Shown here: positions 9,152 through 63,452 of the stretch, in pieces
Layout: each line of letters opens with the position of its first letter
Position numbering within the stretch: the first letter of the stretch is position 1
Assembly: GCA_039931685.1 (NCBI GenBank)
Contig: JBDTRK010000004.1
Location: 426-64,425 of the forward strand
Length of the DNA: 64,000 nt
DNA from: Betaproteobacteria bacterium
GTDB taxonomy: Bacteria; Pseudomonadota; Gammaproteobacteria; Burkholderiales; JACQAP01
Reading direction: 5' to 3'
Translations under genes and position numbers: made by a program
Notes under the pieces: model-generated
The model's database searches: none
Told to the model about the DNA's origin: nothing
What the model saw: the letters and a program-made list of their open reading frames with translations, nothing else

Positions 9152-9540
9152 TGTCCTGAACGCTGGCCTGCCCATGTTCAATTCCCGGCGGCATTGCCGC
9201 CCTCGCATTTCTATTGTTCGGACCCGTTTGCCGATGCACGCATGCAATCGGAACGGATGTTACTTTCCATGCCCGCCGCGGCATTCGAGCCCTGGGCGCC
9301 GATTACGACAAAATGATGACGGACAACGACAAAATGGCGATGGGAAGGCGAATCACGCAAAAACGAACTTCCCTGATCGGCATACCGTCCTTTTCACGAT
9401 GTAAGTGTCCTCCTGCTCTTTGCCGATATCTGTACGATACCGAACATAACCGAGTACTCTAGGGTACATATCCTTCGAAGTGGCACGCTCGAGCAACCCG
9501 CTTCCCTGACCGATTCCTCTCGAGGAAATCGAGGTGTAAC

Positions 9541-11162: not shown

Positions 11163-11729
11163 ATGAAACCCACCGTGCTGAAGGATGTATCGAAGTCCCA
11201 ACCGACGCTGTCCGACATCCAGACGCTACGCAAGCGCGCGCGCCAGCACATCGAGCAGGGCGCCGTCACGTCGGGCTACGCAGCCGAACGCGAAACCGTG
11301 ATCAAATTGCTCAACGAAGCGCTCGCAACGGAAATCGTCTGCGTCCTGCGCTACAAGCGCCACTATTTCATGGCTGCCGGCATCCACGCTGCGCCAGTCG
11401 CTGCCGAGTTTCTGGAACATGCCACCGAGGAAATGCAGCACGCCGACAGCCTCGCCCGGCGCATAGTCGAACTGCGCGGCGAACCGAATTTCTCTCCGGA
11501 GGGTTTGTCGGAACGCAGTCACGCCGAATACGTCGAGGGTGCCTCGCTGAAAGAGATGATCAAGGAAGACCTGATCGCTGAGCGCATCGCCATCGAGAGT
11601 TACCGGGAAATGATCGATTACCTGGGCGAAAAGGACCCGACCACGCAGCGCCTGCTGAAGACCATCCTCGCCAGCGAGGAGGAACATGCCGAGGACTTGT
11701 CGTCGCTGCTGCAGGGCATGGGGAATTGA
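11163..11729 (+). CDS. ferritin-like / bacterioferritin-family protein
   Basis: Di-iron four-helix-bundle ligand motifs (LNEALATEIVCVLRY, EHATEEMQHAD, IAERIAIESY, ASEEEHAEDL). The ATG at 11163 is preceded by AAAGGAG. Confidence 0.85.
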   Translation: MKPTVLKDVSKSQPTLSDIQTLRKRARQHIEQGAVTSGYAAERETVIKLLNEALATEIVCVLRYKRHYFMAAGIHAAPVAAEFLEHATEEMQHADSLARRIVELRGEPNFSPEGLSERSHAEYVEGASLKEMIKEDLIAERIAIESYREMIDYLGEKDPTTQRLLKTILASEEEHAEDLSSLLQGMGN

Positions 11730-12078
11730 GGCTTTTCGGCGCCGCGAACGCGGCGCTTCATGCCATCGCCGGCAAGCGCGACGCACGACTCGATGGTCGC
11801 GTGCGACCGACGCCGGCGCCAACTTCCGCCGGCGCAATTCCCGTCCAACTGCTTGTCTCGCTATTTATTTCCGTATGGGCGGCAGCGCACAGAGAAAGTC
11901 CGGCCGGAAGCGGATAGTCATTTGCTGTACGGCGTGCCTCCGACGCCGGCGAAACTCGGCCGGAGTCTTCAGGAAAGTATTCCACTGCCTGCCGCCATTG
12001 GCCGCGGGCATTGCGGTAACGCCGTGTCGCCGCAGTGGCGGCCGGTATCGGTAGTCCATCCACCAAAAGGGAACCAGA

Positions 12079-27361: not shown

Positions 27362-27748
27362 TCAGGGATGCTGGTGCTGGCTGGCGGACTCCCGGAGTAG
27401 ATTCTTGAGTACGGCCATGACTTCTTCGATTTCGCTCGACTTGTCGAAAAAATAATCAGCTCCGTAACTGAGGCATTTCTCCCGGTTTTCGGGCGTCGGA
27501 AAGTTCGTCAGCATGATGATCTTCGGCGGCCGCGGATACTTCATGACGTCCTCGATCAGGTCAATGCCGCTGCGCTGCGGCATCCGCACATCGACGATCG
27601 CCACGTCGGGTTCAAGTTTTTTTACCAGGTCGGCAGCGTCATAGGCATTGTCCGCCTGAGCGACGATTTCGATGCCCTCGACCTCGGTGAGAAGCTCCGC
27701 GAGCCGCACCCGAATGAGTGCCGAATCATCCACAATCAGGACTTTCAT
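27362..27748 (-). CDS. single-domain CheY-like response regulator
   Basis: MKVLIVDDSALIRVRL...VAIVDVRMPQRSGIDL...IIMLTNF...FDKS. Confidence 0.9.
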   Translation of the reverse strand: MKVLIVDDSALIRVRLAELLTEVEGIEIVAQADNAYDAADLVKKLEPDVAIVDVRMPQRSGIDLIEDVMKYPRPPKIIMLTNFPTPENREKCLSYGADYFFDKSSEIEEVMAVLKNLLRESASQHQHP

Positions 27749-28218
27749 GAACGCCTGGCGATCTGCAGCGCGATCATTCGGAAATATCCTGCGGCTCGCC
27801 AGGTGGTCATCGCTTGGTCCGGTGTGAGCGAGCTTTCAGGAAATTTCAGTCTCCGCGACAGCCTGTGGCAATCCCTCCGGGATCGAGTCATCGCGATATC
27901 GCTCCCAAAACGTGGCCGACGGCAACAGGGCTGAAAAACGCAAGCGAGTCCGACTGGAGTAAACCCCCGCACATGGCTGGCCTGCAGGCTTCGAAACGCA
28001 AATCCATCGGTTATCTTGTCTCAAATACTCCGACGTTTATCCGGGTATCAGACTAGCCTACATATGCGACCGCCCGCTATCCAAAAGCATTGATTTTCCC
28101 GCTGGGGAAGCACTGATTTTGTCGTAGCGAAACGGCTACACGCGTGAAGCAAAATCCTACCGGGCGATTGCGGACCGGAAAGAAAGCGCAAGGGGGAGAA
28201 GCGTAAAGACCGGCGCGG

Positions 28219-28848
28219 CTATTCCACCAGCCCGTGTTTCATGGCGTAGCGCACCAGATCCGTATTGCTGTCGAGCTTGAGCTTCTTGAGTATGCGGATC
28301 CGGTAGGTACTGACCGTATTTGGACTCAGGATTAACTCCTCGGCGATGTTCGAGATCGATTTTCCGGACGCGATCATCCACATGACACGGTATTCGCGAT
28401 CTGACAGCGACTCGTGGGGAAGGCCTTCCGAACCCGCTTCGAGTTCGAGCGCCAGCTTTTCCGCAAGCGATGCGCTGACGTACTTCTTGCCGCTGACGGC
28501 TTTCCTGATCGCGACCGTCAGTTCCTCGGAGGCGCACTCCTTGTTTATGTAACCCGCCGCCCCTGCCCGCAACGCCGAGATTGCGATCGCGTCTTCCGGA
28601 TGCATGCTCAGTATGAGGACAGGGCGATGCGGATAGGCATGCTTGATTTCCTTCAAGACCTGCAGGCCGTTGCCTCCCGGCATGGAGTAGTCGAGGATCA
28701 GCACATCCCAGTCGACGTTGCGCACGGCTTCCAGCGTTTCACCGAAGTTCTTCGCTTCACCGACCACGGACATGTCCGGTTCCGCGGCAAGGATCTGCTT
28801 CAATCCCTGGCGCACCACCGTATGATCGTCCGCAATGAGGATGTTCAT
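28219..28848 (-). CDS. NarL/FixJ-family response regulator
   Basis: MNILIADDHTVVRQGL...VLILDYSMPGGNG, followed by the LuxR HTH (LSDREYRVMWMIASGKSISNIAEELILSPNTVSTYR). Confidence 0.92.
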   Translation of the reverse strand: MNILIADDHTVVRQGLKQILAAEPDMSVVGEAKNFGETLEAVRNVDWDVLILDYSMPGGNGLQVLKEIKHAYPHRPVLILSMHPEDAIAISALRAGAAGYINKECASEELTVAIRKAVSGKKYVSASLAEKLALELEAGSEGLPHESLSDREYRVMWMIASGKSISNIAEELILSPNTVSTYRIRILKKLKLDSNTDLVRYAMKHGLVE

Positions 28849-30051: not shown

Positions 30052-30861
30052 GGCGGCGCTCGCCGGATCCCATCGGCAGGTGACGTTGCAGGACTGATGA
30101 CAATATCACGCGGGAGGCATGTTTCCGTTCGAGGTTGCGTCGCCTTGCGGCGCATCGACCGCAAATCGAAGTTCATCCGGGCAAGCGTACCGGCGTATCA
30201 GTCCAGCCACAACGCGAGTCTGGAAACGCCGGACCGTGCATCGCAGACCGGCTTGCGATCTTGCGATGCGGCGACCCGACACCTACCGCGGCTTCATGCG
30301 ATGTGAATGCCGCAATTGCAGGTGAAGCGATTCACTTGCACGCCCTTCCCTGCCTCGCCTGCACGGACCGGCCCCCGCATCGGGGCCAGGCCATGAGCTT
30401 GTCAATCGCGCCGACGGGCTCGCCCCTCGACGACGTCCCGCCGTAGTCATCGCCTCTCCCAAAAATTTCGCCAGGCCACTTCGCGTCCGGCCCGGCTCGG
30501 GCGCGCTTTGCGCGACAACGAGTTGAGCCGGGCTGCAGCGCTCAAGTTCCCGATTGCCAACCGCACAGGGTCTGGGACCTTGCCCGGCCGACAACGCTAA
30601 CCCCCTCTCGCACATCAGCAATTTATCGCTCTCGGGACGAACAAGGCGCCCTGTCGTTCAAGCCAGACAGCTTTTTGTGAGCGCAAACAACGGTCTCAAT
30701 GAATATGGGCATCAGTTGTCGCCCTGACACTACATCTCTGTAGTGGTTAATCTACACTCCTCCATCTATCCATCTATTTATAAATGACTTTCTGAAGCGG
30801 CATGCGTCTTGCAGACAGATGCAGTGAAGCAAATTTTGCTCACTCATTTGGAGGTTCGATC

Positions 30862-32229
30862 ATGGACTGCAATATCGCCTTGCCAGTACTTCATAGTAGC
30901 GGTGATCCCGGTGGCTTCATACGTAACAACCCTGAGCGTCACGCTGCAAGTTCTTCGGTCGCCGCCTATCGGACTCGCGCACTTCATTCGGCTTCTGTCG
31001 GGATTCTCCTGGTCGGCATCTCGTTGATCGCCGCGTGCGGGAGCGGCGGCGGCGGCTCGGATGCGAGTGCGGCTGCAGGTAAGAATCGCGGTGGCGGTGG
31101 AACAGCCTCGACGACCGTCCCTAGCACGACACCAACCACAACCCCAACCACAACCCCAACCACTACCCCAACCACTACCCCGACCGGCACCGCTACCACT
31201 CGCGACGTGCTCCAGCAGCCTTTCGCGGTCACCAGCATTTGGAACATGCCGATCGGCAGCAACGCCGTCTATGTGCCCGCAAACATACCGGCGATTCCCT
31301 ACAGCCCGAATGAATGGGCACCGATGCCGGTCATTGACAGGGAAATCATCGTCCTCACGCCGACCGCGCCGCTGACAAATATCTACTACAGCAGCGCGGC
31401 CTGGACCGGAGCCAACCGTTGTGCCCCTACCGGCAGCATGATTTTCCAGTTGCCTATCCCGAGCAACTTTGTCGTCCCCAACGCACCCGGCAATGGAAGC
31501 GCGGCGTTCCTCAAGGCGGATGGACGCACCCTGGTTCAGACGCAGCCGTTTACGCGCTGCACCGCTGGCGCATCGGGAACTTCGCTTACCGACGCGTCCA
31601 GTTTTCCTGAGGTCGATCTCCATGGCGACGGCATCCGCGGTTCTCATGGCGGCTCGGGACTATCGGCAATTGGCGGGTCCATCCGCGTGGGTGAACTGCG
31701 CCCCGGAAGCAAGGGACCGGCACACGCCCTCAAGGTGGCTGTCGACTCGCCACAGGTTCTCTTCGCGTGCACGACCGCCAGCCAGTGTTTCCGTTGGCCG
31801 GCGGATAGAGCCGACGGTGGTGCCGTGGGCTCTTACGGCAGGCTCCGCCCCAGCAACAGCAGCGCAATGAAGATGGGCGCGCTGCTCGCCATCCCGGCCT
31901 CGACGAACCTGTCAAACCTGGGCCTGGAGACGGAACCAGGAAAGCAGCTCGCCTGGACGCTGCAGAACTACGGCGCTTACATCGACGACAGCACGGGCGG
32001 TCCAGCCGTAGTCATCAACGCCGAGGACGGCTATCACGGATCCGTGATAACGCAGTTCCAGAACGATTGGGGCTTCCCGATGGAACAACGCGTGAACAGC
32101 AACTCGCCGTGGTCCCGCGACATGCAACGTTTGATGACGGCGCTTTATGTTGTGGACAATAACAGCCCAACCACCATTGGCGGCGGCGGCACGCCCCTTC
32201 AGCCTCTTGCCGCGGCGTTGAGCAACTGA
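30862..32229 (+). CDS. secreted lipoprotein with Thr/Pro linker and uncharacterised ~330-aa C-terminal domain
   Basis: The ATG at 30862 is preceded by TGGAGG. Signal/lipobox: GILLVGISLIAAC followed by GSGGGG. The linker is (TTTP)n. The C-terminal domain has enzyme-like conserved-looking blocks (HGGSGLSAIGGSIRVGEL, FRWPADRADG) that I cannot assign to a family. Confidence 0.7.
   Translation: MDCNIALPVLHSSGDPGGFIRNNPERHAASSSVAAYRTRALHSASVGILLVGISLIAACGSGGGGSDASAAAGKNRGGGGTASTTVPSTTPTTTPTTTPTTTPTTTPTGTATTRDVLQQPFAVTSIWNMPIGSNAVYVPANIPAIPYSPNEWAPMPVIDREIIVLTPTAPLTNIYYSSAAWTGANRCAPTGSMIFQLPIPSNFVVPNAPGNGSAAFLKADGRTLVQTQPFTRCTAGASGTSLTDASSFPEVDLHGDGIRGSHGGSGLSAIGGSIRVGELRPGSKGPAHALKVAVDSPQVLFACTTASQCFRWPADRADGGAVGSYGRLRPSNSSAMKMGALLAIPASTNLSNLGLETEPGKQLAWTLQNYGAYIDDSTGGPAVVINAEDGYHGSVITQFQNDWGFPMEQRVNSNSPWSRDMQRLMTALYVVDNNSPTTIGGGGTPLQPLAAALSN
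31129..31184 (+). repeat. 12-bp tandem repeat encoding (T-T-T-P)n linker
   Basis: aca cca acc aca acc cca acc aca acc cca acc act acc cca acc act acc ccg acc. About 4.5 in-frame copies of ACN-ACC-CCA-ACC. Confidence 0.9.
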
Positions 32230-37588: not shown

Positions 37589-38583
37589 ACCTGCAGCCCT
37601 TCCTGGCCGAACTGTACAGTCGCAATATTCAGCTCTGGGCCGACGGCGACCGCCTCAGGTGCAAGGCGCCAACGGGTGTACTCACGACCACCCTGCGCGA
37701 CCAGTTGATAGAGCGCAAGGGCGAGATCCTGGCGCTTCTGCGCAGCGCCGAGGCCGTTTCCAGCCAGCCGCGGGCGATCGTTCCGCTTCAACCGGGGGGC
37801 GATCGCACGCCAATTTTTGCGGTCGCCGGCCACAATGGCGACGTCTTCGCCTATCGCGCCCTGGCGTTCCACCTCGGTAAAGATCAGCCGTTCTTCGCAC
37901 TCGAGCCACCGGGACTCGATGGCGACAGCGAACCGTTGCAGCGGGTCGAGGACCTCGCCGACTATTTTGCCGCGCAGATCCAGGCATTTCAGCCTGACGG
38001 CCCCTACATCATTGCCGGCTATTGCGCGGGCGGCACGATTGCCTTCGAACTGGCCCGCCAGTTACGGGCGCGTGGCGCAACGATCCAGCTTCTGGCCCTG
38101 ATTGCCTCGCCGTACCCGACGTCCTTTCGCGTTGCGGCGCGTATGCAACAGGCTGTCGTGCACCAGGTGGCGCGCATCGTCCGGCATGTCCGTTCGTTGC
38201 GACGGCTGTCATTCCTGGAATCTATTCGGTACATAAGCGCGAAATTTCGCCGGCGCAGTCTACTGCGCGACGCCGAGCACGCTGCATCGCTGGATCCCGT
38301 TCTGGCGCGGCGCGACGACGTGGCGCGCACTACGATTGCGGCGCTGCGCCGTTACACGCCGGAGCGTTATTCCGGGCGTGTAGGCCTTTTGTTGCCCAAC
38401 AGGCAATGGTTGCGCTCAGGCGCCGCCCCCTTGCATTGGCGATCCGTAGCGCCACACGCCGAGCATTACTTCGGTCCGGACGGCTGCAATCCGGACCTCC
38501 TGTTGGTCGATCCGGACGCCCCCGCCATTGCCGATCTGTTCAGGCGGTGCCAGGAAGGCAAGCCGGCGGAGGCCTCGCCGTGA
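37585..38583 (+). CDS. TubC-N-type docking domain fused to a thioesterase with a Cys nucleophile (GYCAG)
   Basis: The N-terminus (FLAELYSRNIQLWADGDRLRCKAPTGVLTTTLRDQLIERKGEILALL) matches the TubC N-terminal docking pattern. The alpha/beta-hydrolase TE has the nucleophile elbow IIAGYCAGGTIAFELA (TGC at 38023-38025). The start overlaps the NRPS stop as ATGA. Confidence 0.8.
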   Translation: MNLQPFLAELYSRNIQLWADGDRLRCKAPTGVLTTTLRDQLIERKGEILALLRSAEAVSSQPRAIVPLQPGGDRTPIFAVAGHNGDVFAYRALAFHLGKDQPFFALEPPGLDGDSEPLQRVEDLADYFAAQIQAFQPDGPYIIAGYCAGGTIAFELARQLRARGATIQLLALIASPYPTSFRVAARMQQAVVHQVARIVRHVRSLRRLSFLESIRYISAKFRRRSLLRDAEHAASLDPVLARRDDVARTTIAALRRYTPERYSGRVGLLLPNRQWLRSGAAPLHWRSVAPHAEHYFGPDGCNPDLLLVDPDAPAIADLFRRCQEGKPAEASP

Positions 38584-53042: not shown

Positions 53043-53241
53043 GCAACCCCCTGCCGGTACGCGCTGTCAGTATCGGCACAACGCCCCGGCGTGTTTGCCA
53101 TTGAAAGATTCCGATGTATTGCTCCCGCCGAACGGCTTGCGGCATGCGCTACACCTTCGCACTACGTCACTTTCCCTATTCGACTTCCTGTCTGGATTCG
53201 AGTCAGTGGACCTGAAACGCCGCTGCGCAGCCACGGAGCCC

Positions 53242-54333
53242 TCAGCTAAGGCAGCGGTCGTACAGTCTGCGAAAATCATCCGCCAGCCGCCCCACGGCGT
53301 AGTGCTCCAATACGCGCCGCCGCGCCGCTTCCGACATTCGTCTCAGCTTGTCGCGGTCGTCGTCGAGGGCGGCCACTGCGCTCGCAAGAGCACCTGCATC
53401 CTTCACCGGCACGAACAGGCCGTGCTCCCCGTCGCGCATCACATCGGGCATTGCGGCGACGCGTGTCGTGATGGGGACGCAGCCGGCCGCCATTGCCTCG
53501 AGCAATGCATACGGGAGGCCTTCCTTGTGGTAAGTCGGAAAGACAAACAAGTCCGAATCGAGCCAGAGCCTGTATTTCCCGGCAGCGAAGATGCTGCCGA
53601 TGAACTGCACGCGGTCCTCGAGGCCGGCCCGTTTTGAGGCGGCCATCATGGCGGCCAGATCCGGGCCTTCGCCCGCCACCGAGAGGGTGAATTCCCGCCC
53701 GGCGCGCTTCAGCGTGACCAAAGCCTCGATGACTTCGAACAACCCTTTGCTGCGGACCAGTCGTCCGACATAAACCAGCTTGAGCGGCCCGCCCGTGTTG
53801 CAAACGCGTTTCTGGTCGGCAAGGCCTGCGGCGTCAATGGCGTTGGGGACCAGGTGGACATTAATTCGCCGATCAAAGTCCTGGTAGGCGCGTAGCTCGG
53901 CCGTAGAAAGCACGGCCACCACGCTGCTGGAAACGAGAAAGCGCCGCAAGATCCAGGTCAGCAAGGCGTTGCCCTCGAAGAACGCCTGCGGGAGCGCCCC
54001 ACCATGAATCTGATTCACCACGCGCCGGCCGAATCCCTTGGCGACGATCCAATAGCCCAGATCCCGCCAGTAGCCGTTGCGATCGAGCGAAGTGTTGATG
54101 TGGACGACGTCGGCACCTGTCCTGAGCATGAGCAGCCCGAGCTGGAAAGGGCTTGCCGCAAGCCGCGCCACCTTCTGCAGGAAATTCTCCCGGCGCCCTT
54201 CGCTTCCGACCTGGAAGTGGATGAGCGAGAAATCATCGGCGAGCCGGGAAGCGAACAACGTATTCAGGTGCGTGCTGACCCCGCTGACCGCTTCGCGGTG
54301 TGGACCGAGCACGAGGACCACCGCTCGTTTCAT
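53242..54333 (-). CDS. GT4-family glycosyltransferase
   Basis: MKRAVVLVLGPHREAVSGVSTHL..., C-terminal FVFPTYHKEGLPYALLEAMAAGCVPI. Alternative starts are at 54375 and 54438. Confidence 0.85.
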   Translation of the reverse strand: MKRAVVLVLGPHREAVSGVSTHLNTLFASRLADDFSLIHFQVGSEGRRENFLQKVARLAASPFQLGLLMLRTGADVVHINTSLDRNGYWRDLGYWIVAKGFGRRVVNQIHGGALPQAFFEGNALLTWILRRFLVSSSVVAVLSTAELRAYQDFDRRINVHLVPNAIDAAGLADQKRVCNTGGPLKLVYVGRLVRSKGLFEVIEALVTLKRAGREFTLSVAGEGPDLAAMMAASKRAGLEDRVQFIGSIFAAGKYRLWLDSDLFVFPTYHKEGLPYALLEAMAAGCVPITTRVAAMPDVMRDGEHGLFVPVKDAGALASAVAALDDDRDKLRRMSEAARRRVLEHYAVGRLADDFRRLYDRCLS

Positions 54334-54568
54334 GCCGTAGAGCGCATCGGTGCAAGCATTGACGTTCCGGGGCATAACATCGACCGGCGCCGAGTCTGAC
54401 ACCGATACTCGATGCGGCAACCCTCCGTATGGCGGCATTTCCGATCCTCTCCTTGTAAAACCATGAATGACAGTCCCTATCGCTGTCGCGCATAAGGCAC
54501 CGATTTGTCGCTATTGTGCGACAGTGCTATGCAGTGATTTGCATGCTCGCCATGGGCCGGATGGACCG

Positions 54569-55729: not shown

Positions 55730-57259
55730 TCAGTGTGCGCGCTTGCGCCTGCGCAGGGTGGCGATCCAGGCTCGACCCATGCCGGACATAGCGGCCATTG
55801 CGGCATAAACCAATGCGAGCGTAGTCCCGCCAACGAGCCCGCGAATCAGCGGCCCGCTCGCGGGGAAACACAGAACGACCATGCCCCAGGCGATCAAAGC
55901 CGCCAGAGCGGCGAAGGACACGAGCAGTGCGAGGGCTTTCCAGTCCTGCAGCCGCCGAATCGGCACTTCCGTGAGCAAGGAAATTCGCCACAGGGTGACC
56001 ATGCGGTCGATATAAATCACGATCACGCCCCCCACCGCCGCTCCCGCCAGCCCGATTTGTACGGCCGCGTACCAGTTAAGGGCCACGGCCAGGACTAGCG
56101 CGGCGACGTTCAGCACCATTACGAATACCGCTTGCCGGAGCAGCATCGTAAGACTCGATAATTCAACGACAAGGGCGGCAATGCCGACGATGTAGATGCG
56201 AATTACCGGAGCGGCATCCAGATAGGTCGCCGTGTAGACGATCGTAACAAGTTCGTCCGCGAAGACGAAGGCAAACGCGAACAGCGGAAAAACGAGTGCA
56301 CCGACCATGATATTCCCGCGACTGTTGAGCTCGAGCAGGCCGGCAATGTCGCCGCTCGCCTGGTGGCGGCTCATGGTCGGCAGAAATGCATAGCTGACCG
56401 ACTGGCGGAACAGGTTCATCAGCGGTCCGAGCACCGCGGCAATCGAAAACGCCGCAAACATACTCAGCGGGAAAAGCGCGGCGACCACCCACTGGTCCGC
56501 CTGCGTGCGCAAACCGTACAGCGCGCCAGCCGCTCCGAGCGGCGCTGCATACTGCAACTGATCGACCAATGCGCTCCATCGCAACACCGGCCTGCGCAAA
56601 CCGTGAAACCTGGCGATATAGCCCATCAGGACGACCACCTTGAACGCCACGAAGGCGAGCAAAACCAGCAGCACAGGTCCCAGATCGCGCGTCAGAACGG
56701 CAACCAGAGACAGCGACACGGCACGCAATACGGCAAGGCTGACCGTCGCCTTCGCCTGCCACTTCACGCGCTCCTCGGCGGTGGGCAGTACATCGAGCAA
56801 AGAGGCGACGACCCACATCAGAATGAACACGGGCAGCACGACTTCGTGCCGGGCAAGACCACGCAACTTCTCTGGTAACCAGGGATTCCAGCCACTGACT
56901 GCCCACGCTGCGACCAGGCCGGCAAGCACGAGAAATATCAGCGTCTGATTCACATACAGGCGTTTGCCCGTCGCGTCAGAGCGCGGCAGAAAGTAATAAA
57001 GGCTCGCGGGCATGGCCAATGTCGCCACCGCGATGACCGTGCCGGCTACCAGCCACAGCAGGCGGTACTCTCCGAAGGCAGCGGCATCAAGGCATCGCGT
57101 CAACACCACAGGAAGAATGAACTGCATCGCAACGTCGAACGCGTTTGCTGCACCCAACGACAAGGCACGGTGTCCGAGCCGCGGCGCAGCCGGCATCGCG
57201 GTCGCCGTTTCGCCCCCAACGGCCGACGTTTGCATTGCTGCGGACGGATCCGGAACCAT
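55730..57259 (-). CDS. Wzx-like oligosaccharide/polysaccharide flippase (MOP superfamily)
   Basis: Polytopic membrane protein. LGAANAFDVAMQFILPVVLTRCLDAAAFGEYRL is a typical flippase N-terminus. The ORF extends to 57457, but that extension overlaps the ligase-like relic. ATGs at 57259 and 57235 are likelier starts. Confidence 0.8.
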   Translation of the reverse strand: MVPDPSAAMQTSAVGGETATAMPAAPRLGHRALSLGAANAFDVAMQFILPVVLTRCLDAAAFGEYRLLWLVAGTVIAVATLAMPASLYYFLPRSDATGKRLYVNQTLIFLVLAGLVAAWAVSGWNPWLPEKLRGLARHEVVLPVFILMWVVASLLDVLPTAEERVKWQAKATVSLAVLRAVSLSLVAVLTRDLGPVLLVLLAFVAFKVVVLMGYIARFHGLRRPVLRWSALVDQLQYAAPLGAAGALYGLRTQADQWVVAALFPLSMFAAFSIAAVLGPLMNLFRQSVSYAFLPTMSRHQASGDIAGLLELNSRGNIMVGALVFPLFAFAFVFADELVTIVYTATYLDAAPVIRIYIVGIAALVVELSSLTMLLRQAVFVMVLNVAALVLAVALNWYAAVQIGLAGAAVGGVIVIYIDRMVTLWRISLLTEVPIRRLQDWKALALLVSFAALAALIAWGMVVLCFPASGPLIRGLVGGTTLALVYAAMAAMSGMGRAWIATLRRRKRAH

Positions 57260-57323
57260 GACGGACTGCACGCGCCGGCCCATGGCAGTCAAGTAGCAGG
57301 CTGCTTGTTGAGTCGGCCGTACA

Positions 57324-57914
57324 TTAGCCCAATCGCCAGCCAAAGGAAGGTACCTGTTCGGGTCGCAGCGCAAGGCTGCCATCGGTAATGCTGGAGACAA
57401 CGAAGCGGACGACCAGACCCTGGTCGCAACTCCATTTCCCGAATCCCCTCCGGTCATGCAGGAAATAGGCGCATTTCAAAACTCTAGCGGCTCTTCCCAT
57501 TTCGAGGAGTTCGCTAACCGACTCCTGCAATAACTGCGCGGTCATGCCGACAAAATTTCTGAAAAAAGGCGACTTGCTCATAAACTCGGGCGACCATTTG
57601 TGCCGACTCGCCGCTTTATGGGGACTAATCGAGCGACGTAATATGGAGTGCCATACTAGCCACATGATATTTTTCGGATTGCCTGCCTCGCTAGTCTGAT
57701 CGGACCAGCCGGAACCGGGGACGCCTATGCTTGTTGTTAAACCTCTTTCCTGCAGGCAGGACCATTGACAGGATCGTATGGATTCCCGCCAGATCGACTC
57801 CGGAATGGGGAGCTGCCCACTGGTCAGGAAAGTCGGGCCGCCCGTTCGGCCCGTACGCGGAATCATGGCAACGGACTTGAATTGCAGTGAGAACCACCTC
57901 ATCACGGATCCCAC
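57324..57914 (-). pseudogene. diverged 3' fragment of a Wzy/O-antigen-ligase-like gene (relic copy)
   Basis: The C-terminal half of this 196-aa ORF aligns with the C-terminus of the intact gene 61911..63452. ELLEMGRAARVLKCAYFLHDRRGFGKW aligns with ALLDMGVAGLVLMCAYFIHVWRGFRKL, and SSITDGSLALRPEQ aligns with SNITDGSLVPRPEQ. A 1-nt indel after PEQ breaks the frame. The TM hydrophobicity is lost. Confidence 0.65.
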
Positions 57915-57923
57915 GCGGATACC

Positions 57924-59351
57924 TTAGCGGGTGAGCGTATAAAGGTCGGTGGTGGATATCGGATCAAAGCTGTATATCACACTGATGCACAAGAGAATCC
58001 ACAGCAAGATCTTCAAATGGCTTTTCGTCAGCAGCTCAGCACACAATATTGAAAAGAATGGAACGAACATCAACTGCCTGTAACCAAGGCCGTAGCCAAA
58101 CACCAGACCATAAGGTAATGCTGTCAAGAGCACGATCACTGACAGCTTCGAAATCTCCCTTGAATGAGCCTGAAAACATGATGAAACCGCCAAAACGATG
58201 AAGAAGAAGAACACACTGCCCGTCCCGATCACACGTTGAACAAGCTGCACTTCCGGTCTAACAACGGACCGCCCATCGAATGTTTTGCTGCTCGATTTAA
58301 GTTCTGACGATAGCGAGAAATCATCAACCTTCTCTCCACGAGGATCAAAATTTCTATGGGTGATTGGTGTCAAGATCTCCATGGCAAAGGAAACGGGATT
58401 CGCAAAAGGCGTGAGAATTGCCAATGATATTATTCCAAACACTGCTAACTCTTTAGCACGTCGTTTAATATATTCAACGGCTGACGCCAGGCCAGATGCC
58501 GCATAGCATTCGTAGCCTTGCCATATAAAGAAAAAGAGCAAGGCTGGCAAAAGAAATACCGCCGTATTCTTCGATGCCAGAGCAAGCCCATATGCCACTC
58601 CACCGATCACATATTTGCGTTTTAAGAGAAAGTAACTGGATGCCAGCAAAAAAGGCACCATGATTGAATCATGGTGTAAGTTTGGGAAGTACTGAATAGT
58701 GGTCGGAAAGAAAGCGCATACAGCAGCTCCCAAACCTGCCAGCCTCTCATCAAACTCGGTTTTCAATATGAAATAGACGAGCAAAACTGTGAGTAACCCG
58801 GATACGATTTGTACCAAACGCGTGAGCACAAACAAGGGATGATAATTTTGGCTGTGTTGAATATGAAGCAACTCTTGCCCGTTTGAAACCAATGATACAA
58901 GCGCGAGTTGCGGTATCGACAGCAACGCAGGCAGGAGAGGCTTGCCGGCACCATGGCTGTAGAACCTGTCCGGTTCCGGGACTATCATGCGCGACTGATA
59001 CAAAACCAATGCCTTTGGATCGGTGCTCTCGACACGCTCTGGCTTGGAATAGCCAAATCGGCTTTCCTCCTCGGCAAACAGGGTTTTGTGGTGCTCGTTG
59101 ACGATGGGGGAAAAAAGAGGGCGATACTGCCAATAGAAAAAATAAGACTTTGCGGCCGTTTCGAAGGCTTTCTTGTAGTTTTTTTCCTTTACGTAGCCCT
59201 TTGTATAGTCCCCGCCCAACAACTCGTAAGGTTCTCGAATAAACGCAAACTCATCGACATCCAGCTTGACGGTAGCAAATAATGACGCGAGTACTAGATA
59301 GATCACGGAAATCGCGACAATGTGAAATCTTGGTGTAGAAAATATTGTCAT
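57924..59351 (-). CDS. GT-C-fold membrane glycosyltransferase (ArnT/PMT/GtrC-like)
   Basis: 475 aa with about 11-12 TM segments. The first loop carries an acidic motif (KLDVDEFAFIREPY) as in GT-C enzymes. G+C is markedly lower than in the flanking DNA. Confidence 0.7.
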   Translation of the reverse strand: MTIFSTPRFHIVAISVIYLVLASLFATVKLDVDEFAFIREPYELLGGDYTKGYVKEKNYKKAFETAAKSYFFYWQYRPLFSPIVNEHHKTLFAEEESRFGYSKPERVESTDPKALVLYQSRMIVPEPDRFYSHGAGKPLLPALLSIPQLALVSLVSNGQELLHIQHSQNYHPLFVLTRLVQIVSGLLTVLLVYFILKTEFDERLAGLGAAVCAFFPTTIQYFPNLHHDSIMVPFLLASSYFLLKRKYVIGGVAYGLALASKNTAVFLLPALLFFFIWQGYECYAASGLASAVEYIKRRAKELAVFGIISLAILTPFANPVSFAMEILTPITHRNFDPRGEKVDDFSLSSELKSSSKTFDGRSVVRPEVQLVQRVIGTGSVFFFFIVLAVSSCFQAHSREISKLSVIVLLTALPYGLVFGYGLGYRQLMFVPFFSILCAELLTKSHLKILLWILLCISVIYSFDPISTTDLYTLTR

Positions 59352-59969
59352 GTCAGGTTTCTCGTAAGTAGTTCTCGCAAGCTTCCCGGTTCGGTGGACG
59401 GTTCAAAACTGTCGGTTCCGCAGCGAGCAAATTCTGTTGTTAGCGCGCTGGCAAGATTCTCCCCGCATCCTTCGGCCTAAAGGCGTTCTACGACTCGAGC
59501 CAAATGGCGACGATTTCGCACTCTTCCGCCAGTGACTCGAATGGGAAAGCCGCTAGAGCCGCCTTCCTGCAGGTCAGAATAAAGCGTTCGACAAAGGCGT
59601 TCCAATGCATTTTTCAGACATGGACGAAGCGCAACTCGATGCTTCGGGCGCGGCACCAAGAGATAAAATGGGTCGCTTGTTAGTCCGGTGCTAATGTCGT
59701 AACGAATCGCGTGAATCAGGCTGTGCAGGTCGATCGACCGCCCCGTAAGCTTCATCACTTATTTCACCGGGGCGCTCACAGCAGTGTCGATGCTGACGGC
59801 GCCACAGTTTTCATCGTCGATTACGCCAGGAGTCCGGGGTACCCGCCCACGGTAATGCGTGTTTCGCATGAAGAGAGCCCAGCCCGCATTCATCTGGAGC
59901 ACCATAAATCCGGCGCCCGCTGCTCGCTCCTGCGCACCCGGCGCTCGGACCGCCGCGGCAGATCAATCT

Positions 59970-60380
59970 TCATCTATGCGTTCCCCTGAATGCGATGTAC
60001 TTCGAGCTGAAAAAATTGAAGAACAGAGCAACCGCGGAGGCAATGGCAAGGGGTACGAGAGGCGAGTTTGCAAGTGCATTGAATCTGAAAATCAGCCAGA
60101 AGAAAATTGCCAGATTCAGAAGCGCGCCAAGGCCGTTGACGACCACATAGCGCGCCCACTCTCGAAAGACCTGTTTGTCCTTCTTTCCAGAGAAGGTGTG
60201 CTGCCGGTTTAGATACCAGGTTAAGGTAACCGCCACACTGAATGAGAACAATCGGGCGGACAGTAAATCCAGGCCGAAAAGACTATTCAGAAAAATGAGT
60301 ACTCCACCATCGGTGGCAAAACCGATACTGCCGATCACAACGAAGCTGCTGGCTTGTTGCGATATTTGCCGCCACATCAT
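59970..60380 (-). CDS. gtrA: GtrA-family membrane protein
   Basis: 136 aa with four TM segments: FVVIGSIGFATDGGVLIFL...WYLNRQHTF...NGLGALLNLAIFF...FFSSKYIAF. The start overlaps the GT2 stop as ATGA. Confidence 0.85.
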   Translation of the reverse strand: MMWRQISQQASSFVVIGSIGFATDGGVLIFLNSLFGLDLLSARLFSFSVAVTLTWYLNRQHTFSGKKDKQVFREWARYVVVNGLGALLNLAIFFWLIFRFNALANSPLVPLAIASAVALFFNFFSSKYIAFRGTHR

Positions 60381-61411
60381 GACGCGGGTGGGGATTTGAA
60401 GCGATGGCTGTCAGCGAGCCAGGGAAGACCGAGATATACCAGCCGTCTGAATTCTCTGCGGCCCCGGGCCACCGAACTCAATATCATGCCGTTGCTCAAG
60501 CTCAGAAAAGCAAGAATCATGATGCTCGCAGAAAGAATTGCCGTTGGAACGCGCGGCACAAGGCCCGTCTCCAACCATTCGAGAACTATGGGCGCCCCCA
60601 GAGCAAATGAGGTGGCGGCAAGTATGGCGAACAATACTCCAAAGAAGAAAGAGGGACGCTCTTCCTTGGTCATCAAGAGGATCGTCCACAGAATGCGAAT
60701 GCCGTCGCGATAGGTATTCAGCTTGCTCACGCTGTTCTCCGGCCGCTCCTTGTACGGCGTGGGCATCTCCGCGACCGGCATATGGAGAGACAGCGCATGT
60801 ATGGTGAGCTCTGTCTCGATTTCGAAACCTGTCGAAAGCGCGGGAAACGATTTTACGAAGCGCCGGGAGAAGACCCGGTAACCGGAAAGAATGTCGACGA
60901 AACGCCTGCCAAAGATCCAGGCCACAATGCCCGTCAAGAAGCGGTTGCCAAGTCGGTGTCCGACCCGATACGCCTCACGCTTCTCAGTGACACGTTGCCC
61001 ATTGACCATGTCGCATCGATTTTGAAGGAGCAAATCAATCATCAGCGGAGCGCTAGCCGCGCTATATGTATCATCGCCGTCTACAAGCACGTAGATGGAT
61101 GCCTGAACGTCCGCAAACATTCTGCGAACTACATTCCCCTTTCCCTGCTCGGGCTCCACGCGCACGATAGCACTATGATCCCTTGCTATTGCCGCAGTGT
61201 GGTCCGTGGAGTTGTTATCGTAAACATAGACCCGAGCGGCGGGAAGATGCTGCTTGAATGCATCAATAACCGCGGAGACCGCCACTCCCTCGTTGTAGCA
61301 AGGGATAAGCACAGCGATACTCAGCGTTTCAGATATAGCTGGCTCTTCCAGAATACGCGACTGTTCTACGCCGCTCCGCAATTGATGATCTCCGTGCGCG
61401 CTAACGCCCAT
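60377..61411 (-). CDS. GT2-family polyprenyl-phosphate glycosyltransferase (GtrB/ArnC/DPM1-like) with C-terminal TM helices
   Basis: IAVLIPCYNEG...YVYDNNSTDHT...GKGN...VLVDGDDTY, then two C-terminal TM helices (FFFGVLFAILAATSFALGAPIVL, ILSASIMILAFLSLSNGMIL). Confidence 0.85.
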   Translation of the reverse strand: MGVSAHGDHQLRSGVEQSRILEEPAISETLSIAVLIPCYNEGVAVSAVIDAFKQHLPAARVYVYDNNSTDHTAAIARDHSAIVRVEPEQGKGNVVRRMFADVQASIYVLVDGDDTYSAASAPLMIDLLLQNRCDMVNGQRVTEKREAYRVGHRLGNRFLTGIVAWIFGRRFVDILSGYRVFSRRFVKSFPALSTGFEIETELTIHALSLHMPVAEMPTPYKERPENSVSKLNTYRDGIRILWTILLMTKEERPSFFFGVLFAILAATSFALGAPIVLEWLETGLVPRVPTAILSASIMILAFLSLSNGMILSSVARGRREFRRLVYLGLPWLADSHRFKSPPAS

Positions 61412-61910
61412 GGTAGCCCTCCGTCAAACAGCAAGAGAATGGAAACCGCCTTGTGCCAAAGCCCTCAACCAATCGTTTCGGGCAGGTCGCGGCGATGACG
61501 ATGCCGCCCAACACGCAAAAGCAATCGATGAAAATCCAGAAAATGCGCAGAAATGGCACTTGGTACAGATGGCTGTATGCGTCGATTTGGATTGGAGCAG
61601 CCAGACATACAGTTATGCAGCGCCAACGACACAGAACGACAAATCGACTTTCCATACTCTTCCCCTCGAATTGCACGCAATTTCCGGTTAGGACGGTGAC
61701 ATGGGCAGAAGCCAGAATCGCCATGGAACCATGGTCCGAATGGATCAGGTCTTTGATCCACGATAGCGTCGATGCAGAGCGCATTCGCTTTCGCCCATTT
61801 TCTATTCGTGGCACTTACTCTTCCGGCAGTGTGTGGCGCGGCGACGCGAGTCCGTGAATCGGCGCACATTGCTTTTCCGGCGAACCCTCGCATGCTCAGT
61901 GGCGCCCCGA

Positions 61911-63452
61911 TCATTGTTTGGAATAGCCTTTGGATGTATGGCCGTACATCATTCCAATCGCCAGCCAGAGCAATGCCTGCTCGGGTCGCGGCACCAGGCT
62001 GCCGTCAGTGATATTGGAGACAAGAAGACTGAGTAATCCCGCTGTGGCGCCCTGAAAGAGTCCGCGTAGCGCGGGAACCAGGTGCGAATCGCGACCCAAT
62101 TTCCTGAATCCTCTCCAGACGTGGATGAAATAAGCGCACATCAGGACCAGACCGGCCACCCCCATGTCGAGCAGGGCCTGAAGATAGGCATTGTGCGGGT
62201 GCGTGGCCTGCAGGACGTTCGCCCCTCCTCCCGCGCGCATCGTTTCGGACCACATCATTGAGCCGAGGCCGCTGCCGTAGACCGGGCTGTGTGCCACTTC
62301 AGGAAGCAACGGAATCCACAGACCGTTGACGCGACCGGCGCTGATCGCGTTCAATCCTTCCCCCTCCCCGGTGGCTGCGCGATCGTAGACCGCACCGGGA
62401 AGCGCGAACAGCGCGATCACGGCCAGCAGTCCGAAAAGAATCAGCGTCTTTGCGCTGCGCCGCCAGATCAGAAAGTACGCGTTGACCACGATGAACCCGA
62501 CGAATGCGCCGCGCGAGAAGGTCAGCACCAGCGCCGTGACTGCCGGCAGCATGGTGGCCAGAAGCGCAAATCGGAATCCGGGCTCCTTCGTTTCGGCCCA
62601 CACAAAAAGCAGGAGGGCATACGCAAACACGAAAAGTCGCCCGAGGTCGTTGGCGTGCAAGCCGAGGGTCGACAGGAATTCGCGCGAATCGCTGCTCGCG
62701 AGTTGGCTGATCGAGATCCCGGACTGGACGACGAACACGATGACGATCAGGCCCATTGCCCAAATCGAGACCAGCGCGGGGATGAGAAATTTCTCCGGCT
62801 TCCCGGATTTCGACACGGCCGCCCCGACCAGCAACGCAAAGATCACCATTAGAATGGGCTTCATCACCATGTCGCGGACATATCCGGTGACGTTGTCGAA
62901 TTCGATCAACTCCAGAATGTGGAATGCCGGCGCGATTTCGAAGACATGCCGCGAGCCGATCACGCCAGCGGCCACTATGGGCGCGATGTATAACCAGACA
63001 AGCGGGCGCGGCAGAAAATTGCGCAGGCTCCCGTCAGATAGTGCGTGAAGCAGGCAGGAGCCGAGCGTGCCGATCAGAACCAGGTTCAGTGGATTGAGGC
63101 CGGTAATTCCGAGCATTGCGTGCGGAAATACGTAACTGTTTGAAATCGGCATAAACAGGATCAGCAGCACGACCCCGATGCGGAAATCGAGCAGGATGAA
63201 CGCGCAACCGATCAGCGAAACACACAGATACAAGGCGTTCAATCCGGCGAACGCGACGACACCCCCCCAAAGCACACCGAGCAGTGCTATGCCTGCCAGG
63301 GTGGACGCCTTGTGTGTGTATGGTTGCTCGGTCCAGGCCTGCCCCAGGACGCTATCGTCGCGAGGCGGGGCCTTGCTTCGCCGCCACCGGGCCGCCAGCC
63401 CGGAAAAAAACGATCGCTCCAGAGCCAGGGACATTCTGCTCGACCGCTTCAA
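61911..63452 (-). CDS. Wzy_C / O-antigen-ligase-like polytopic membrane protein
   Basis: 513 aa with more than 10 TM segments. Wzy_C-like region: LTFSRGAFVGFIVV...HPHNAYLQALLDMGVAGLVL. It sits next to the BY-kinase, as in exosortase-A-type EPS loci. Confidence 0.82.
   Translation of the reverse strand: MKRSSRMSLALERSFFSGLAARWRRSKAPPRDDSVLGQAWTEQPYTHKASTLAGIALLGVLWGGVVAFAGLNALYLCVSLIGCAFILLDFRIGVVLLILFMPISNSYVFPHAMLGITGLNPLNLVLIGTLGSCLLHALSDGSLRNFLPRPLVWLYIAPIVAAGVIGSRHVFEIAPAFHILELIEFDNVTGYVRDMVMKPILMVIFALLVGAAVSKSGKPEKFLIPALVSIWAMGLIVIVFVVQSGISISQLASSDSREFLSTLGLHANDLGRLFVFAYALLLFVWAETKEPGFRFALLATMLPAVTALVLTFSRGAFVGFIVVNAYFLIWRRSAKTLILFGLLAVIALFALPGAVYDRAATGEGEGLNAISAGRVNGLWIPLLPEVAHSPVYGSGLGSMMWSETMRAGGGANVLQATHPHNAYLQALLDMGVAGLVLMCAYFIHVWRGFRKLGRDSHLVPALRGLFQGATAGLLSLLVSNITDGSLVPRPEQALLWLAIGMMYGHTSKGYSKQ

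What the first reader, a model, noticed from the sequence alone, without database searches (positions are those of the whole stretch)
57315..62030. Lower-G+C GtrB/GtrA/GT-C cassette flanked by a direct duplication of the Wzy/ligase gene 3' end
Between the Wzy/ligase-like gene and the Wzx-like gene lies a stretch of about 4.6 kb. Its composition is visibly more AT-rich than the flanks (by eye ~45-52% G+C versus ~65%).

It encodes a three-part polyprenyl-phosphate-sugar decoration module:
- A GT2 with C-terminal TM helices (GtrB/ArnC-like).
- GtrA.
- A GT-C enzyme after a 620-bp spacer.
This is the logic of phage-borne gtrABC O-antigen glucosylation cassettes.

The cassette is bounded by two same-orientation copies of the 3' end of the ligase gene.
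- DNA 57315-57410 aligns with 61940-62030. Shared strings include ggccgtacat and ccaatcgccagcca, then tcgggtcgc, aggctgcc and ggagaca.
- At protein level the relic ORF 57324..57914 matches the last ~130 aa of the intact gene. LEMGRAARVLKCAYFLHDRRGFGKW aligns with LDMGVAGLVLMCAYFIHVWRGFRKL, and ITDGSLALRPEQ with ITDGSLVPRPEQ.
- The relic carries a 1-nt indel.

I saw no integrase, transposase or tRNA. The cassette therefore seems to have entered, or to be exchangeable, by homologous recombination within the ligase gene.
Basis: seen in the sequence. Interest (0 to 1): 0.75.

Follow-up and report, generated by a model that had tools for sequence, protein, structure and literature searches.

The report
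Foreign sugar-decoration cassette with duplication scar
A soil bacterium's slime-polysaccharide operon has picked up a foreign three-gene module that probably adds a side-sugar outside the cell membrane, and the insertion duplicated about 250 bases of the host gene it landed in, so both neighbouring genes kept working ends; this is a clean example of a known process, not a new kind of system.

Summary
Window 57,293-61,910 (4.6 kb) is 51.8% G+C against 61.8% in the flanks. It encodes a GT2 polyprenyl-phosphate-sugar synthase, GtrA and a PMT_2-type GT-C enzyme. It is bounded by same-orientation copies of the Wzy_C (ligase-like) gene's 3' end (73/91 nt, E 9e-18).

Corrections:
- The relic covers the last ~85-90 codons, not ~130.
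- It carries a 2-nt insertion and a 42-nt deletion, not a 1-nt indel.

New findings:
- In 53 of 62 related loci the ligase stop overlaps the wzx start (NTGA).
- The relic keeps this ancestral junction. The intact ligase has a replaced 9-residue tail.
- The closest relative (87% ligase identity) has an empty site.
- The relic shares 7 of 12 substitutions specific to the window's own ligase, so it is an in-lineage duplicate, not donor DNA.
- The same cassette (81-83% DNA identity) lies in an unrelated locus in another high-G+C genome, also bordered by scraps of neighbouring host genes.
- No integrase, transposase, terminal repeats, phage or plasmid match was found.

Best reading: horizontal acquisition by a recombinase-independent insertion-duplication. 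Recombination between today's repeats is unlikely, because the longest identical run is 14 nt. This is a new member of a known kind, of moderate interest.

The parts
61911..63452 (-). Wzy_C-domain (O-antigen ligase/polymerase-like) gene, intact, 513 aa. The last 9 residues (HTSKGYSKQ, 61,914-61,939) and the stop are not homologous to relatives.
   Evidence: Pfam Wzy_C 1.6e-16. Homology to 130+ relatives and to L144 ends at ~61,939/61,940.
61940..62183 (-). Copy A of the duplicated segment (ligase codons ~424-504, possibly from codon 415 at 62,206). It is the functional part of the intact gene.
   Evidence: blastn 80% over 91 nt, E 9e-18. tblastn residues 424-508. Alignments.
61412..61910 (.). 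499-nt stretch between the ligase stop and GT2 with no recognisable gene. 54.5% G+C. Not shared with the L053/L054 cassette copy.
   Evidence: No Pfam hit for its ORFs. No tblastx or blastn match. SNP density 14/kb against L141, neutral-like.
60377..61411 (-). GT2 polyprenyl-phosphate hexose synthase (GtrB/DPM1/AglJ-like) with a C-terminal hydrophobic region.
   Evidence: Pfam PF00535, NCBIfam TIGR04182 3e-61, PDB 5mlz 5e-7. 82.7% DNA identity to L053/L054 over 61,319-59,970.
59970..60380 (-). GtrA-family small membrane protein (proposed lipid-linked sugar flippase).
   Evidence: PF04138 1.3e-19.
59352..59969 (.). 618-nt spacer (155 nt in L053), not alignable with L053, with no recognisable content.
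   Evidence: Highest SNP density against L141, 16/kb.
57924..59351 (-). GT-C glycosyltransferase of the PMT_2 / GT39-like family, 475 aa.
   Evidence: PF13231 3.8e-14. 190 homologues, best 79% (P0002), named GT39 / Dol-P-Man protein mannosyltransferase by sources. 80.6% DNA identity to L053/L054 over 59,358-57,887.
57520..57923 (-). Segment of unknown origin between GT-C and the relic (5' part of ORF 57914..57324). Probably non-coding.
   Evidence: No homologue among 1.8 billion representatives except itself. No Pfam hit. 3 nonsynonymous to 1 synonymous SNPs against L141.
57289..57519 (-). Copy B, the decayed ligase 3' end. It has a 42-nt deletion at 57,411|57,410 and a 2-nt insertion at ~57,349-57,350. 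It retains the ancestral tail MYGRLNKQPAT, the stop TGA 57,291-57,289 and the TTGA overlap with wzx. It contains a 48-codon ORF from ATG 57,435 to that stop.
55730..57292 (-). wzx-like flippase (Polysacc_synt_3 in the near-identical L141). The start is TTG 57,292 overlapping the relic's stop, or ATG 57,283. The longer ORF from 57,457 is an over-extension.
   Evidence: NTGA overlap in 53 of 62 related loci. L010 and L030 have 1 and 6 open codons upstream. The gene call in L141 corresponds to 57,283.

Best explanation
A lower-G+C three-gene cassette was acquired horizontally and now sits inside an exopolysaccharide operon of an uncultured soil betaproteobacterium. It encodes a GT2 polyprenyl-phosphate-sugar synthase, a GtrA-family protein and a PMT_2-type GT-C transferase.

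Where it landed (shown). It entered the last codons of the Wzy_C (ligase/polymerase-like) gene. There the ancestral gene's stop codon overlaps the start codon of the wzx flippase gene.

What the insertion did (shown). It was accompanied by a direct duplication of about 250 bp of the host's own ligase 3' end.
- The upstream copy keeps the ligase reading frame, with a new 9-residue tail supplied by the insert.
- The downstream copy has decayed as ligase-coding DNA but still carries the ancestral stop/start junction in front of wzx.

Timing (shown). The event happened after this lineage split from its closest sampled relative, which has the empty site. It happened before two strains 0.7% apart diverged.

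How the cassette works (inferred from family membership). The GT2 enzyme loads a hexose onto undecaprenyl phosphate in the cytoplasm. GtrA helps move it across the membrane. The GT-C enzyme transfers it in the periplasm to the exopolysaccharide or another lipid-linked glycan made by this operon. The cassette has the same orientation as the operon and no terminator was predicted, so it is probably co-transcribed.

How it got in (inferred). The most likely route is a recombinase-independent illegitimate insertion that produced a long target duplication, such as a staggered break or a replication template switch. Homologous recombination with a foreign ligase allele is less likely.
For: Foreign origin:
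- G+C is 51.8% against 61.8%, and GC3 is 0.53-0.62 against 0.73-0.80.
- The cassette is absent from all 132 related ligase loci. In 62 of them wzx directly follows the ligase.
- The closest relative, L144 (87% ligase identity), has ligase and wzx overlapping by 4 nt and no cassette.
- The same cassette, 81-83% DNA-identical, lies in an unrelated acyl-CoA dehydrogenase/carboxylase locus of a 65-73% G+C genome. There it is also low in G+C.

Duplication:
- 73/91 nt identical, E 9e-18.
- L144 positions 11,414-11,496 are matched by both copies.

In-lineage origin of the relic:
- It is closest to copy A out of 126 homologous segments.
- It shares 28 non-consensus states with A, against at most 19 for any relative.
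- It has the A state at 7 of 12 A-derived sites, and the L144 state at only 2 of 10 L144-derived sites.

Junction logic:
- 53 of 62 adjacent loci have ATGA, GTGA or TTGA in the wzx frame.
- The relic keeps TTGA and a tail like that of relative L043. Copy A loses homology after MMYG.

Gene functions. The three-component framework is described in PMC11127046.

No mobility genes or element ends.

Real structure: three assemblies agree.

Recurrence of host-gene scraps at cassette borders: L053 and L026.
Against: - The 5' half of the relic carries far more lineage-specific change (about 28%, spread evenly over codon positions, plus a 42-nt deletion) than the 3' half (about 12%). It also exceeds what the few post-duplication changes in copy A would predict. 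This is not explained by simple neutral decay since one event.
- Polarised site counts are small (12 and 10 sites).
- No intermediate genomes are available to show that the duplication and the insertion were one event.
- Sugar, acceptor and expression are all inferred.
- SNPs between the two strains do not show strong purifying selection on the cassette genes: 8 synonymous to 8 nonsynonymous over the three genes.
Confidence: 0.7

Rival explanations
1. Campbell-type entry. A circular DNA carrying the cassette plus a ~250-bp ligase fragment integrated by one homologous crossover within the ligase gene. This gives the same insert flanked by two copies of the fragment, and the cassette could leave or move to other strains by the reverse reaction.
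For: - The topology is exactly that of insertion-duplication: the upstream copy is truncated at the fragment's end and the downstream copy starts at the fragment's beginning.
- The relic derives from the window's own lineage or a very close one, as expected if the circle came from a conspecific strain.
- L026 has a relic starting at nearly the same ligase codon (~412-420) with a different cargo.
Against: - It only moves the problem back one step. The first joining of cassette and ligase fragment still needs an illegitimate event.
- The same cassette in L053 is bordered by fragments of quite different host genes, stitched together.
- The present copies share at most 14 identical nt in a row.
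- No empty-site or alternative-cargo variant exists among near-identical strains.
Confidence: 0.2
2. The relic is not a duplicate but a piece of a foreign, diverged ligase gene. It travelled with the cassette from the donor and recombined with the resident gene near its 3' end.
For: - The relic is lower in G+C (56%) than the ligase body.
- It is only 67-72% identical to copy A.
- B-specific changes in the 3' part are biased to third codon positions: 2, 2 and 7.
Against: - The relic shares window-specific derived states in both its halves (4 of 7 and 3 of 5 polarised A-derived sites) and not the L144-derived states.
- Copy A is its nearest sequence of 126.
- The L053/L054 copy of the cassette carries no ligase fragment.
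Confidence: 0.05
3. The cassette is ancestral to this polysaccharide locus and was lost in the relatives. The lower G+C simply reflects membrane-protein composition.
For: Three-component modules do occur natively inside polysaccharide loci elsewhere, for example L137 and L142.
Against: - It would need loss in 132 of 132 related loci, each restoring a precise 4-nt gene overlap.
- GC3, which is little affected by protein composition, is 0.15-0.2 lower.
- An 82%-identical copy lies in an unrelated locus.
- The duplication scar marks an insertion.
Confidence: 0.03

Closest known systems
gtrA-gtrB-gtr(type) O-antigen glucosylation cassettes of Shigella flexneri and Salmonella temperate phages
   Same: - The same three-part logic: a GT2 undecaprenyl-phosphate-sugar synthase with C-terminal membrane segments, GtrA, and a GT-C transferase acting in the periplasm on a Wzx/Wzy-made glycan (PMC11127046).
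- Horizontally mobile, with atypical G+C.
   Different: - The gene order is GT2-GtrA-GT-C rather than gtrA-gtrB-gtrC.
- The GT-C is PMT_2/GT39-like.
- There is no prophage, integrase or tRNA attachment site, and no match in 50,697 phage records.
- It is inserted inside an exopolysaccharide operon of a soil betaproteobacterium.
Chromosomal three-component modification systems inside polysaccharide loci (Klebsiella O-antigen galactose addition; Citrobacter pentofuranose systems)
   Same: - The module is embedded in the glycan biosynthesis locus and presumably co-expressed with it (PMC11127046).
- Relatives of this GT-C occur with GT2+GtrA (L137, L142) or with UbiA+HAD+GtrA (L056) in polysaccharide loci.
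   Different: - Here the module is demonstrably a recent insertion with an empty-site relative and a duplication scar.
- The sugar and the acceptor are unknown.
Insertion-duplication (Campbell-type) integrants, and illegitimate or homology-facilitated illegitimate recombination during natural gene transfer (named from general knowledge, not tested here)
   Same: - The insert is flanked by two same-orientation copies of an internal target fragment.
- One copy is truncated at its 3' end and the other at its 5' end.
- No recombinase gene is present.
   Different: - This is a natural case in which both flanking genes remain functional because the duplicated piece spans a gene-gene overlap.
- The route (circle plus crossover, or break or template switch) is unresolved.
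Genomic islands that integrate into the 3' end of a gene and supply a replacement end
   Same: The target gene stays intact with an element-supplied tail, and the displaced original end remains at the far border as an imperfect direct repeat.
   Different: - Only 9 codons are supplied by the insert.
- The repeat is a duplicate of host sequence, not an element-borne attachment site.
- There is no integrase.
- The same cassette uses unrelated sites.

Membership tests
Three-component periplasmic glycosylation system (Gtr-type) | GT2 polyprenyl-phosphate sugar synthase with C-terminal membrane segments | tested here: met
   PF00535 4e-15; TIGR04182 AglJ 3e-61, below its cut-off; NF041391 dolichyl-P-hexose transferase 5e-25; PDB 5mlz DPMS 5e-7. 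A DGDD motif and a hydrophobic C-terminus are visible in the translation.
Three-component periplasmic glycosylation system (Gtr-type) | GtrA-family small polytopic membrane protein | tested here: met
   PF04138 1.3e-19 over residues 13-131 of 136.
Three-component periplasmic glycosylation system (Gtr-type) | GT-C fold transferase | tested here: met
   PF13231 PMT_2 3.8e-14. Homologues carry PF26314/PF03155 and are named GT39 by sources. There is a weak PDB hit to GPI mannosyltransferase 1. The fold itself was not modelled.
Three-component periplasmic glycosylation system (Gtr-type) | Demonstrated transfer of a lipid-linked sugar to a glycan acceptor | not testable with these tools
   Needs mutants and glycan analysis.
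Phage-borne gtrABC seroconversion cassette | Located in a prophage next to an integrase and attachment site, typically at a tRNA gene | tested here: not met
   No integrase or phage genes in the neighbourhood. The only tRNA call is 20 kb away and unsupported by Rfam. No tblastn hit in the phage collection.
Transposon or insertion-sequence-bounded element | Transposase gene, terminal inverted repeats, short target-site duplication | tested here: not met
   No transposase domain. No inverted repeats at the ends and no end sequences shared with the L053 copy. The duplication is ~250 bp.
Integrase-mediated genomic island | Site-specific recombinase, plus a conserved attachment core repeated at both ends and at every integration site | tested here: not met
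   No recombinase found. The repeats in the window (ligase end) and in L053 (acyl-CoA dehydrogenase start) are unrelated host sequences.
Wzx/Wzy-dependent exopolysaccharide locus of the EpsG / XrtA-associated type (host locus) | Tyrosine autokinase, Wzy_C protein, MOP flippase, GT4 transferases and amidotransferase in one operon | tested here: met
   TIGR03029 EpsG 3e-64, TIGR03108 8e-151, and the TIGR03088/TIGR04063 GT4 families (all below equivalog cut-offs); Wzy_C; Polysacc_synt_3 in L141. An exosortase gene itself was not looked for.

The most novel reading that the evidence does not exclude
Glycan-decoration cassettes of this kind may spread between unrelated chromosomal sites without any recombinase of their own. 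The route would be an insertion-duplication process, either template switching or a circle plus short homology, that copies 50-250 bp of the target. That copy would let tightly coupled flanking genes survive. The leftover gene end would then be retained and remodelled as a short leader reading frame that keeps the downstream flippase translationally coupled. Two observations fit this: the 48-codon ORF from ATG 57,435 to TGA 57,289, and the 73-codon relic ORF in L026.
Probability: 0.15. Interest if true: 0.65.

Novelty: new member of a known kind. Interest (0 to 1): 0.4.

Why it matters
- It gives a dated, sequence-level picture of how surface-polysaccharide diversity arises in uncultured soil bacteria. 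There is an empty site in the nearest relative, an occupied site in two strains, and the same cassette elsewhere in another genome.
- A ready-made side-chain glycosylation module was dropped into a working operon without disabling either neighbouring gene.
- Long duplications of host sequence at cassette borders recur with no recombinase. This could be used to detect such acquisitions in metagenomes.
- It also raises a testable question about whether the leftover gene end is kept for translational coupling of the flippase.
- It does not reveal a new type of system.

Tried and rejected
- Rfam on 56.5-63 kb at E<=1, and on the whole window at gathering thresholds: nothing.
- Promoter and terminator scan: no more sites than shuffled sequence gives, and nothing in the relic.
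- tRNA scan: one 96-nt tRNA-Ala call at 37.7 kb, unsupported by Rfam and irrelevant.
- Pfam on every small ORF in the 499-nt gap, the 618-nt spacer and the relic ORF: nothing.
- Full HMMER search of the 196-aa relic ORF against 1.8 billion representatives: only itself.
- blastn and tblastx of the three unassigned segments against L053-L056, 52 related loci and the whole window: only the ligase relic.
- Search for inverted repeats or shared end sequences between the window and L053 inserts: none.
- Alignment of the GtrA/GT-C spacer with L053: not alignable.
- GT-C against the phage and plasmid collections: no match.
- The ~1.2-kb and ~4.4-kb inserts between ligase and wzx in 19 other loci are native-G+C GT4 or asparagine-synthase-plus-GT4 genes without repeats. 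They are ordinary locus variation and not the same phenomenon.
- Third-codon-position bias of relic-specific changes was considered as evidence for a foreign functional allele. It was rejected as too weak (7 of 11) and contradicted by the shared derived states.
- Significance of the 48-codon leader ORF: 4% of shuffles reach it, so it is suggestive only.


Full report
**Layout**

All genes in this part of the window are on the minus strand. In the direction of transcription the order is as follows:
- an EpsG-type tyrosine autokinase (63,968-63,453, cut by the window end);
- a Wzy_C-domain ligase/polymerase-like gene (63,452-61,911);
- 499 nt without a recognisable gene;
- a GT2 enzyme (61,411-60,377);
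- GtrA (60,380-59,970);
- a 618-nt spacer;
- a PMT_2-type GT-C enzyme (59,351-57,924);
- an ORF of 196 codons (57,914-57,324);
- a wzx-like flippase (to 55,730);
- two GT4 transferases, an XrtA-type amidotransferase and a heparinase-like protein.

This is a Wzx/Wzy-type exopolysaccharide operon. Its relatives are soil Burkholderiales and betaproteobacterial metagenome-assembled genomes.

**Check of the observation**

- Composition: the 4.6-kb stretch is 51.8% G+C against 61.8% for the rest of the window. No 500-nt window outside it falls below 0.53. GC3 is 0.53-0.62 in the three cassette genes against 0.73-0.80 in the neighbours.
- Repeat: the DNA repeat is real, 57,315-57,405 against 61,940-62,027, 73/91 identical, E 9e-18, same orientation.
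- Relic length: at protein level the relic matches ligase residues 424-508 (45% identity). That is about 85 residues rather than 130.
- Relic lesions: it has a 42-nt deletion and a 2-nt insertion rather than a 1-nt indel.
- Rest of the ORF: the first ~125 codons of the 196-codon ORF have no similarity to ligase or to anything else in a library of 1.8 billion representatives.
- Assembly: two other assemblies carry the same structure. These are a 7.7-kb JGI contig with 2 mismatches and an NCBI contig at 99.3% with no gaps. An assembly chimera is therefore excluded.

**What the duplication contains**

I collected 132 related loci. In 62 of them wzx follows the ligase directly, and none carries the cassette.

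In 53 of those 62 the ligase stop codon overlaps a start codon in the wzx frame: ATGA 31, GTGA 18, TTGA 4. Two loci have only 1 and 6 open codons upstream of it, which fixes this as the real wzx start.

The two copies in the window differ in what they retain:
- The downstream copy (B) keeps this ancestral arrangement. Its tail reads MYGRLNKQPAT, then TGA at 57,291-57,289 overlapping TTG at 57,292. This is almost the same as in relative L043 (MYGQLNKRLAT, TTGA).
- The upstream copy (A) is homologous to all relatives only up to MMYG (about 61,940). It then continues into unrelated sequence, giving a new tail HTSKGYSKQ.

The tail is variable in length and sequence among relatives, so the replacement is probably tolerated.

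The structure is therefore: ligase body and copy A, then the insert, then copy B with the original tail and junction, then wzx. The long ORF that the ORF listing starts at 57,457 is an over-extension of wzx.

**Empty site and direction of events**

The closest relative found is L144 (87% ligase identity). It has ligase and wzx overlapping by 4 nt and no cassette.

- Window 63,995-61,939 matches L144 up to position 11,496 at 88%.
- Window 57,398-54,538 matches from position 11,414 at 83%.
- The same 83 nt of L144 are therefore matched twice, and nothing of the host is missing.

**Origin of copy B**

- Of 126 homologous segments, copy A is the one most similar to B: 67.4% against 64.7% for the next.
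- B shares 28 non-consensus states with A, against at most 19 with any relative.
- I polarised sites using L144 and ten close relatives. B has the A state at 7 of 12 sites where A is derived, and the ancestral state at 3.
- B has the L144 state at only 2 of 10 sites where L144 is derived.

B therefore branched from the window's own ligase lineage after the split from L144. It is a true duplicate, not donor DNA.

**An unexplained feature of copy B**

B-specific change is about 28% in its 5' half and is even over codon positions. It is about 12% in its 3' half. Both are more than the handful of changes copy A has accumulated since the duplication.

In the 5' half, residues of a former membrane helix (V, L, M, V, W) have become R, R, K, D, R.

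**The cassette elsewhere**

The GT-C enzyme has a 79% homologue on two JGI contigs, L053 and L054.

- There the same three genes are 81-83% DNA-identical to the window in two blocks, window 61,319-59,970 and 59,358-57,887.
- They are again low in G+C (0.47-0.57) within a 65-73% G+C genome.
- They lie among acyl-CoA dehydrogenase, carboxyltransferase and biotin carboxylase genes, not in a polysaccharide locus.
- The sequences outside the two blocks are unrelated between the two genomes, and no inverted repeats or shared ends exist.

In L053 the insert is also bounded by host sequence repeated in direct orientation. A 55-nt copy (78%, E 2e-7) of the ribosome-binding region and first 13 codons of the downstream acyl-CoA dehydrogenase lies upstream of the cassette. 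It is fused to a 34-residue fragment (88% identical) of the carboxyltransferase gene that is intact 6 kb away.

L026 is an independent third case.
- An antisense 401-codon ORF in a lower-G+C stretch lies between ligase and wzx. I read it by eye as acyltransferase-like and did not test it.
- Next to it are a ligase 3' relic (78% over 171 nt) starting at nearly the same codon as in the window, and what looks like a GT4 5' fragment.

More distant relatives of the module occur natively in polysaccharide loci with GT2+GtrA (L137, L142) or with UbiA+HAD+GtrA (L056). This fits the published picture of widespread three-component systems (PMC11127046).

**Mechanism of function (inferred)**

The GT2 enzyme resembles archaeal AglJ and dolichol-phosphate hexose synthases, and the solved Pyrococcus dolichol-phosphate-mannose synthase. 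GtrA and a PMT_2-type GT-C complete the classical scheme:
- the sugar is loaded onto a polyprenyl phosphate in the cytoplasm;
- the lipid-linked sugar is translocated across the membrane;
- it is transferred to a glycan on the outer face of the inner membrane.

The acceptor is most simply the polysaccharide made by this operon. The sugar is unknown. The cassette shares the operon's orientation, and the scan predicted no more terminators than shuffled sequence gives, so co-transcription is likely but untested.

**Mechanism of entry (inferred)**

The topology is that of an insertion-duplication.

- No integrase, transposase, tRNA, RNA family, phage or plasmid link was found.
- The duplicate is of host origin.
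- The same cassette elsewhere is bordered by stitched fragments of other host genes.

For these reasons I favour an illegitimate, recombinase-independent insertion that generated a long target duplication. Possible routes are a staggered break with fill-in or replication template switching.

It gives the same topology and cannot be excluded. It needs an earlier illegitimate step, however, and does not explain L053.

Today the copies share at most 14 identical bases in a row. This makes recombination between them unlikely; that conclusion is an inference from general knowledge of RecA requirements.

**Why the relic persists**

Its 3' part is better conserved than its 5' part. It still ends in the stop/start overlap.

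It also contains a 48-codon ORF (ATG 57,435, preceded by GGAGGGG at 57,451-57,445). Through the 2-nt insertion this ORF runs into the ancestral tail and stop. In L026 a 73-codon relic ORF runs to the relic's own ligase-type tail (GQRRR) and stop, at the point where the wzx match begins; whether that stop overlaps the wzx start was not checked.

This suggests retention for translational coupling of wzx. However, 4% of shuffled sequences give an ORF as long, and only one SNP falls in the relic. This remains a hypothesis.

**Verdict**

The finding is real and its core description is right. It is a well-resolved case of horizontal acquisition of a known type of glycan-decoration module, with an informative duplication scar at a translationally coupled gene junction. 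It is a new member of a known kind and of moderate interest.

Noticed in passing
L026:6178-8075: An independent case in another soil Burkholderiales genome. An antisense 401-codon ORF (6330-7535; acyltransferase-like by eye, not tested) in a lower-G+C stretch lies between ligase and wzx. It is followed by a 73-codon ligase 3' relic ORF (78% over 171 nt to the intact copy) that runs to its own ligase-type stop next to where the wzx match begins. Right after the intact ligase stop there is what looks like a GT4 N-terminal fragment.
   Followed up: partly
L053:7906-8283 and 11807-11861: The L053 copy of the cassette is bordered upstream by a chimeric relic. The first 13 codons of the downstream acyl-CoA dehydrogenase (55-nt repeat, 78%) are fused to a 34-residue fragment (88%) of the carboxyltransferase that is intact at 174-1784.
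   Followed up: yes
window 57,420-57,520: In the relic, former membrane-helix residues of the ligase (V, L, M, V, W) are replaced by R, R, K, D, R, several through multi-base codon changes. This half of the relic is far more diverged than the other half. The cause is unknown: decay, selection against a toxic membrane fragment, or mutagenic repair.
   Followed up: partly
window 57,289-57,435: A 48-codon ORF with an SD-like GGAGGGG 9 nt upstream starts out of the ligase frame. It is brought into the ancestral tail frame by the 2-nt insertion, and ends at the TGA overlapping the wzx TTG start. 4% of shuffles give an ORF this long.
   Followed up: partly
window 61,465-61,914: The new ligase stop is again part of an ATGA, starting a 149-codon ORF with no homologues or domains. 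This is probably chance, since any base but C before TGA makes a start codon.
   Followed up: partly
window 53,081-54,538 versus L144:14279-18983: The region holding the second GT4 gene is not shared with the closest relative L144. L144 instead has a 727-residue dehydrogenase fusion, another GT4 and an epimerase, so the operon is mosaic at a second place.
   Followed up: no
window 37,701-37,796: ARAGORN calls a 96-nt tRNA-Ala(TGC), but Rfam finds no tRNA in the window at gathering thresholds. It is probably a false call.
   Followed up: partly
window ~9,100-9,800, ~27,400-28,500 and ~30,400-31,200: Three other patches with 500-nt G+C below 0.56 (minimum 0.532 at 30,501). Their content was not examined.
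   Followed up: no
window 60,377-61,411: The GT2 ORF is 344 codons, whereas nearly all 120 listed homologues are 311-329. Homology to the L053/L054 copy starts only at codon ~31, so the 5' end of this gene may have been replaced or the start mis-assigned.
   Followed up: no
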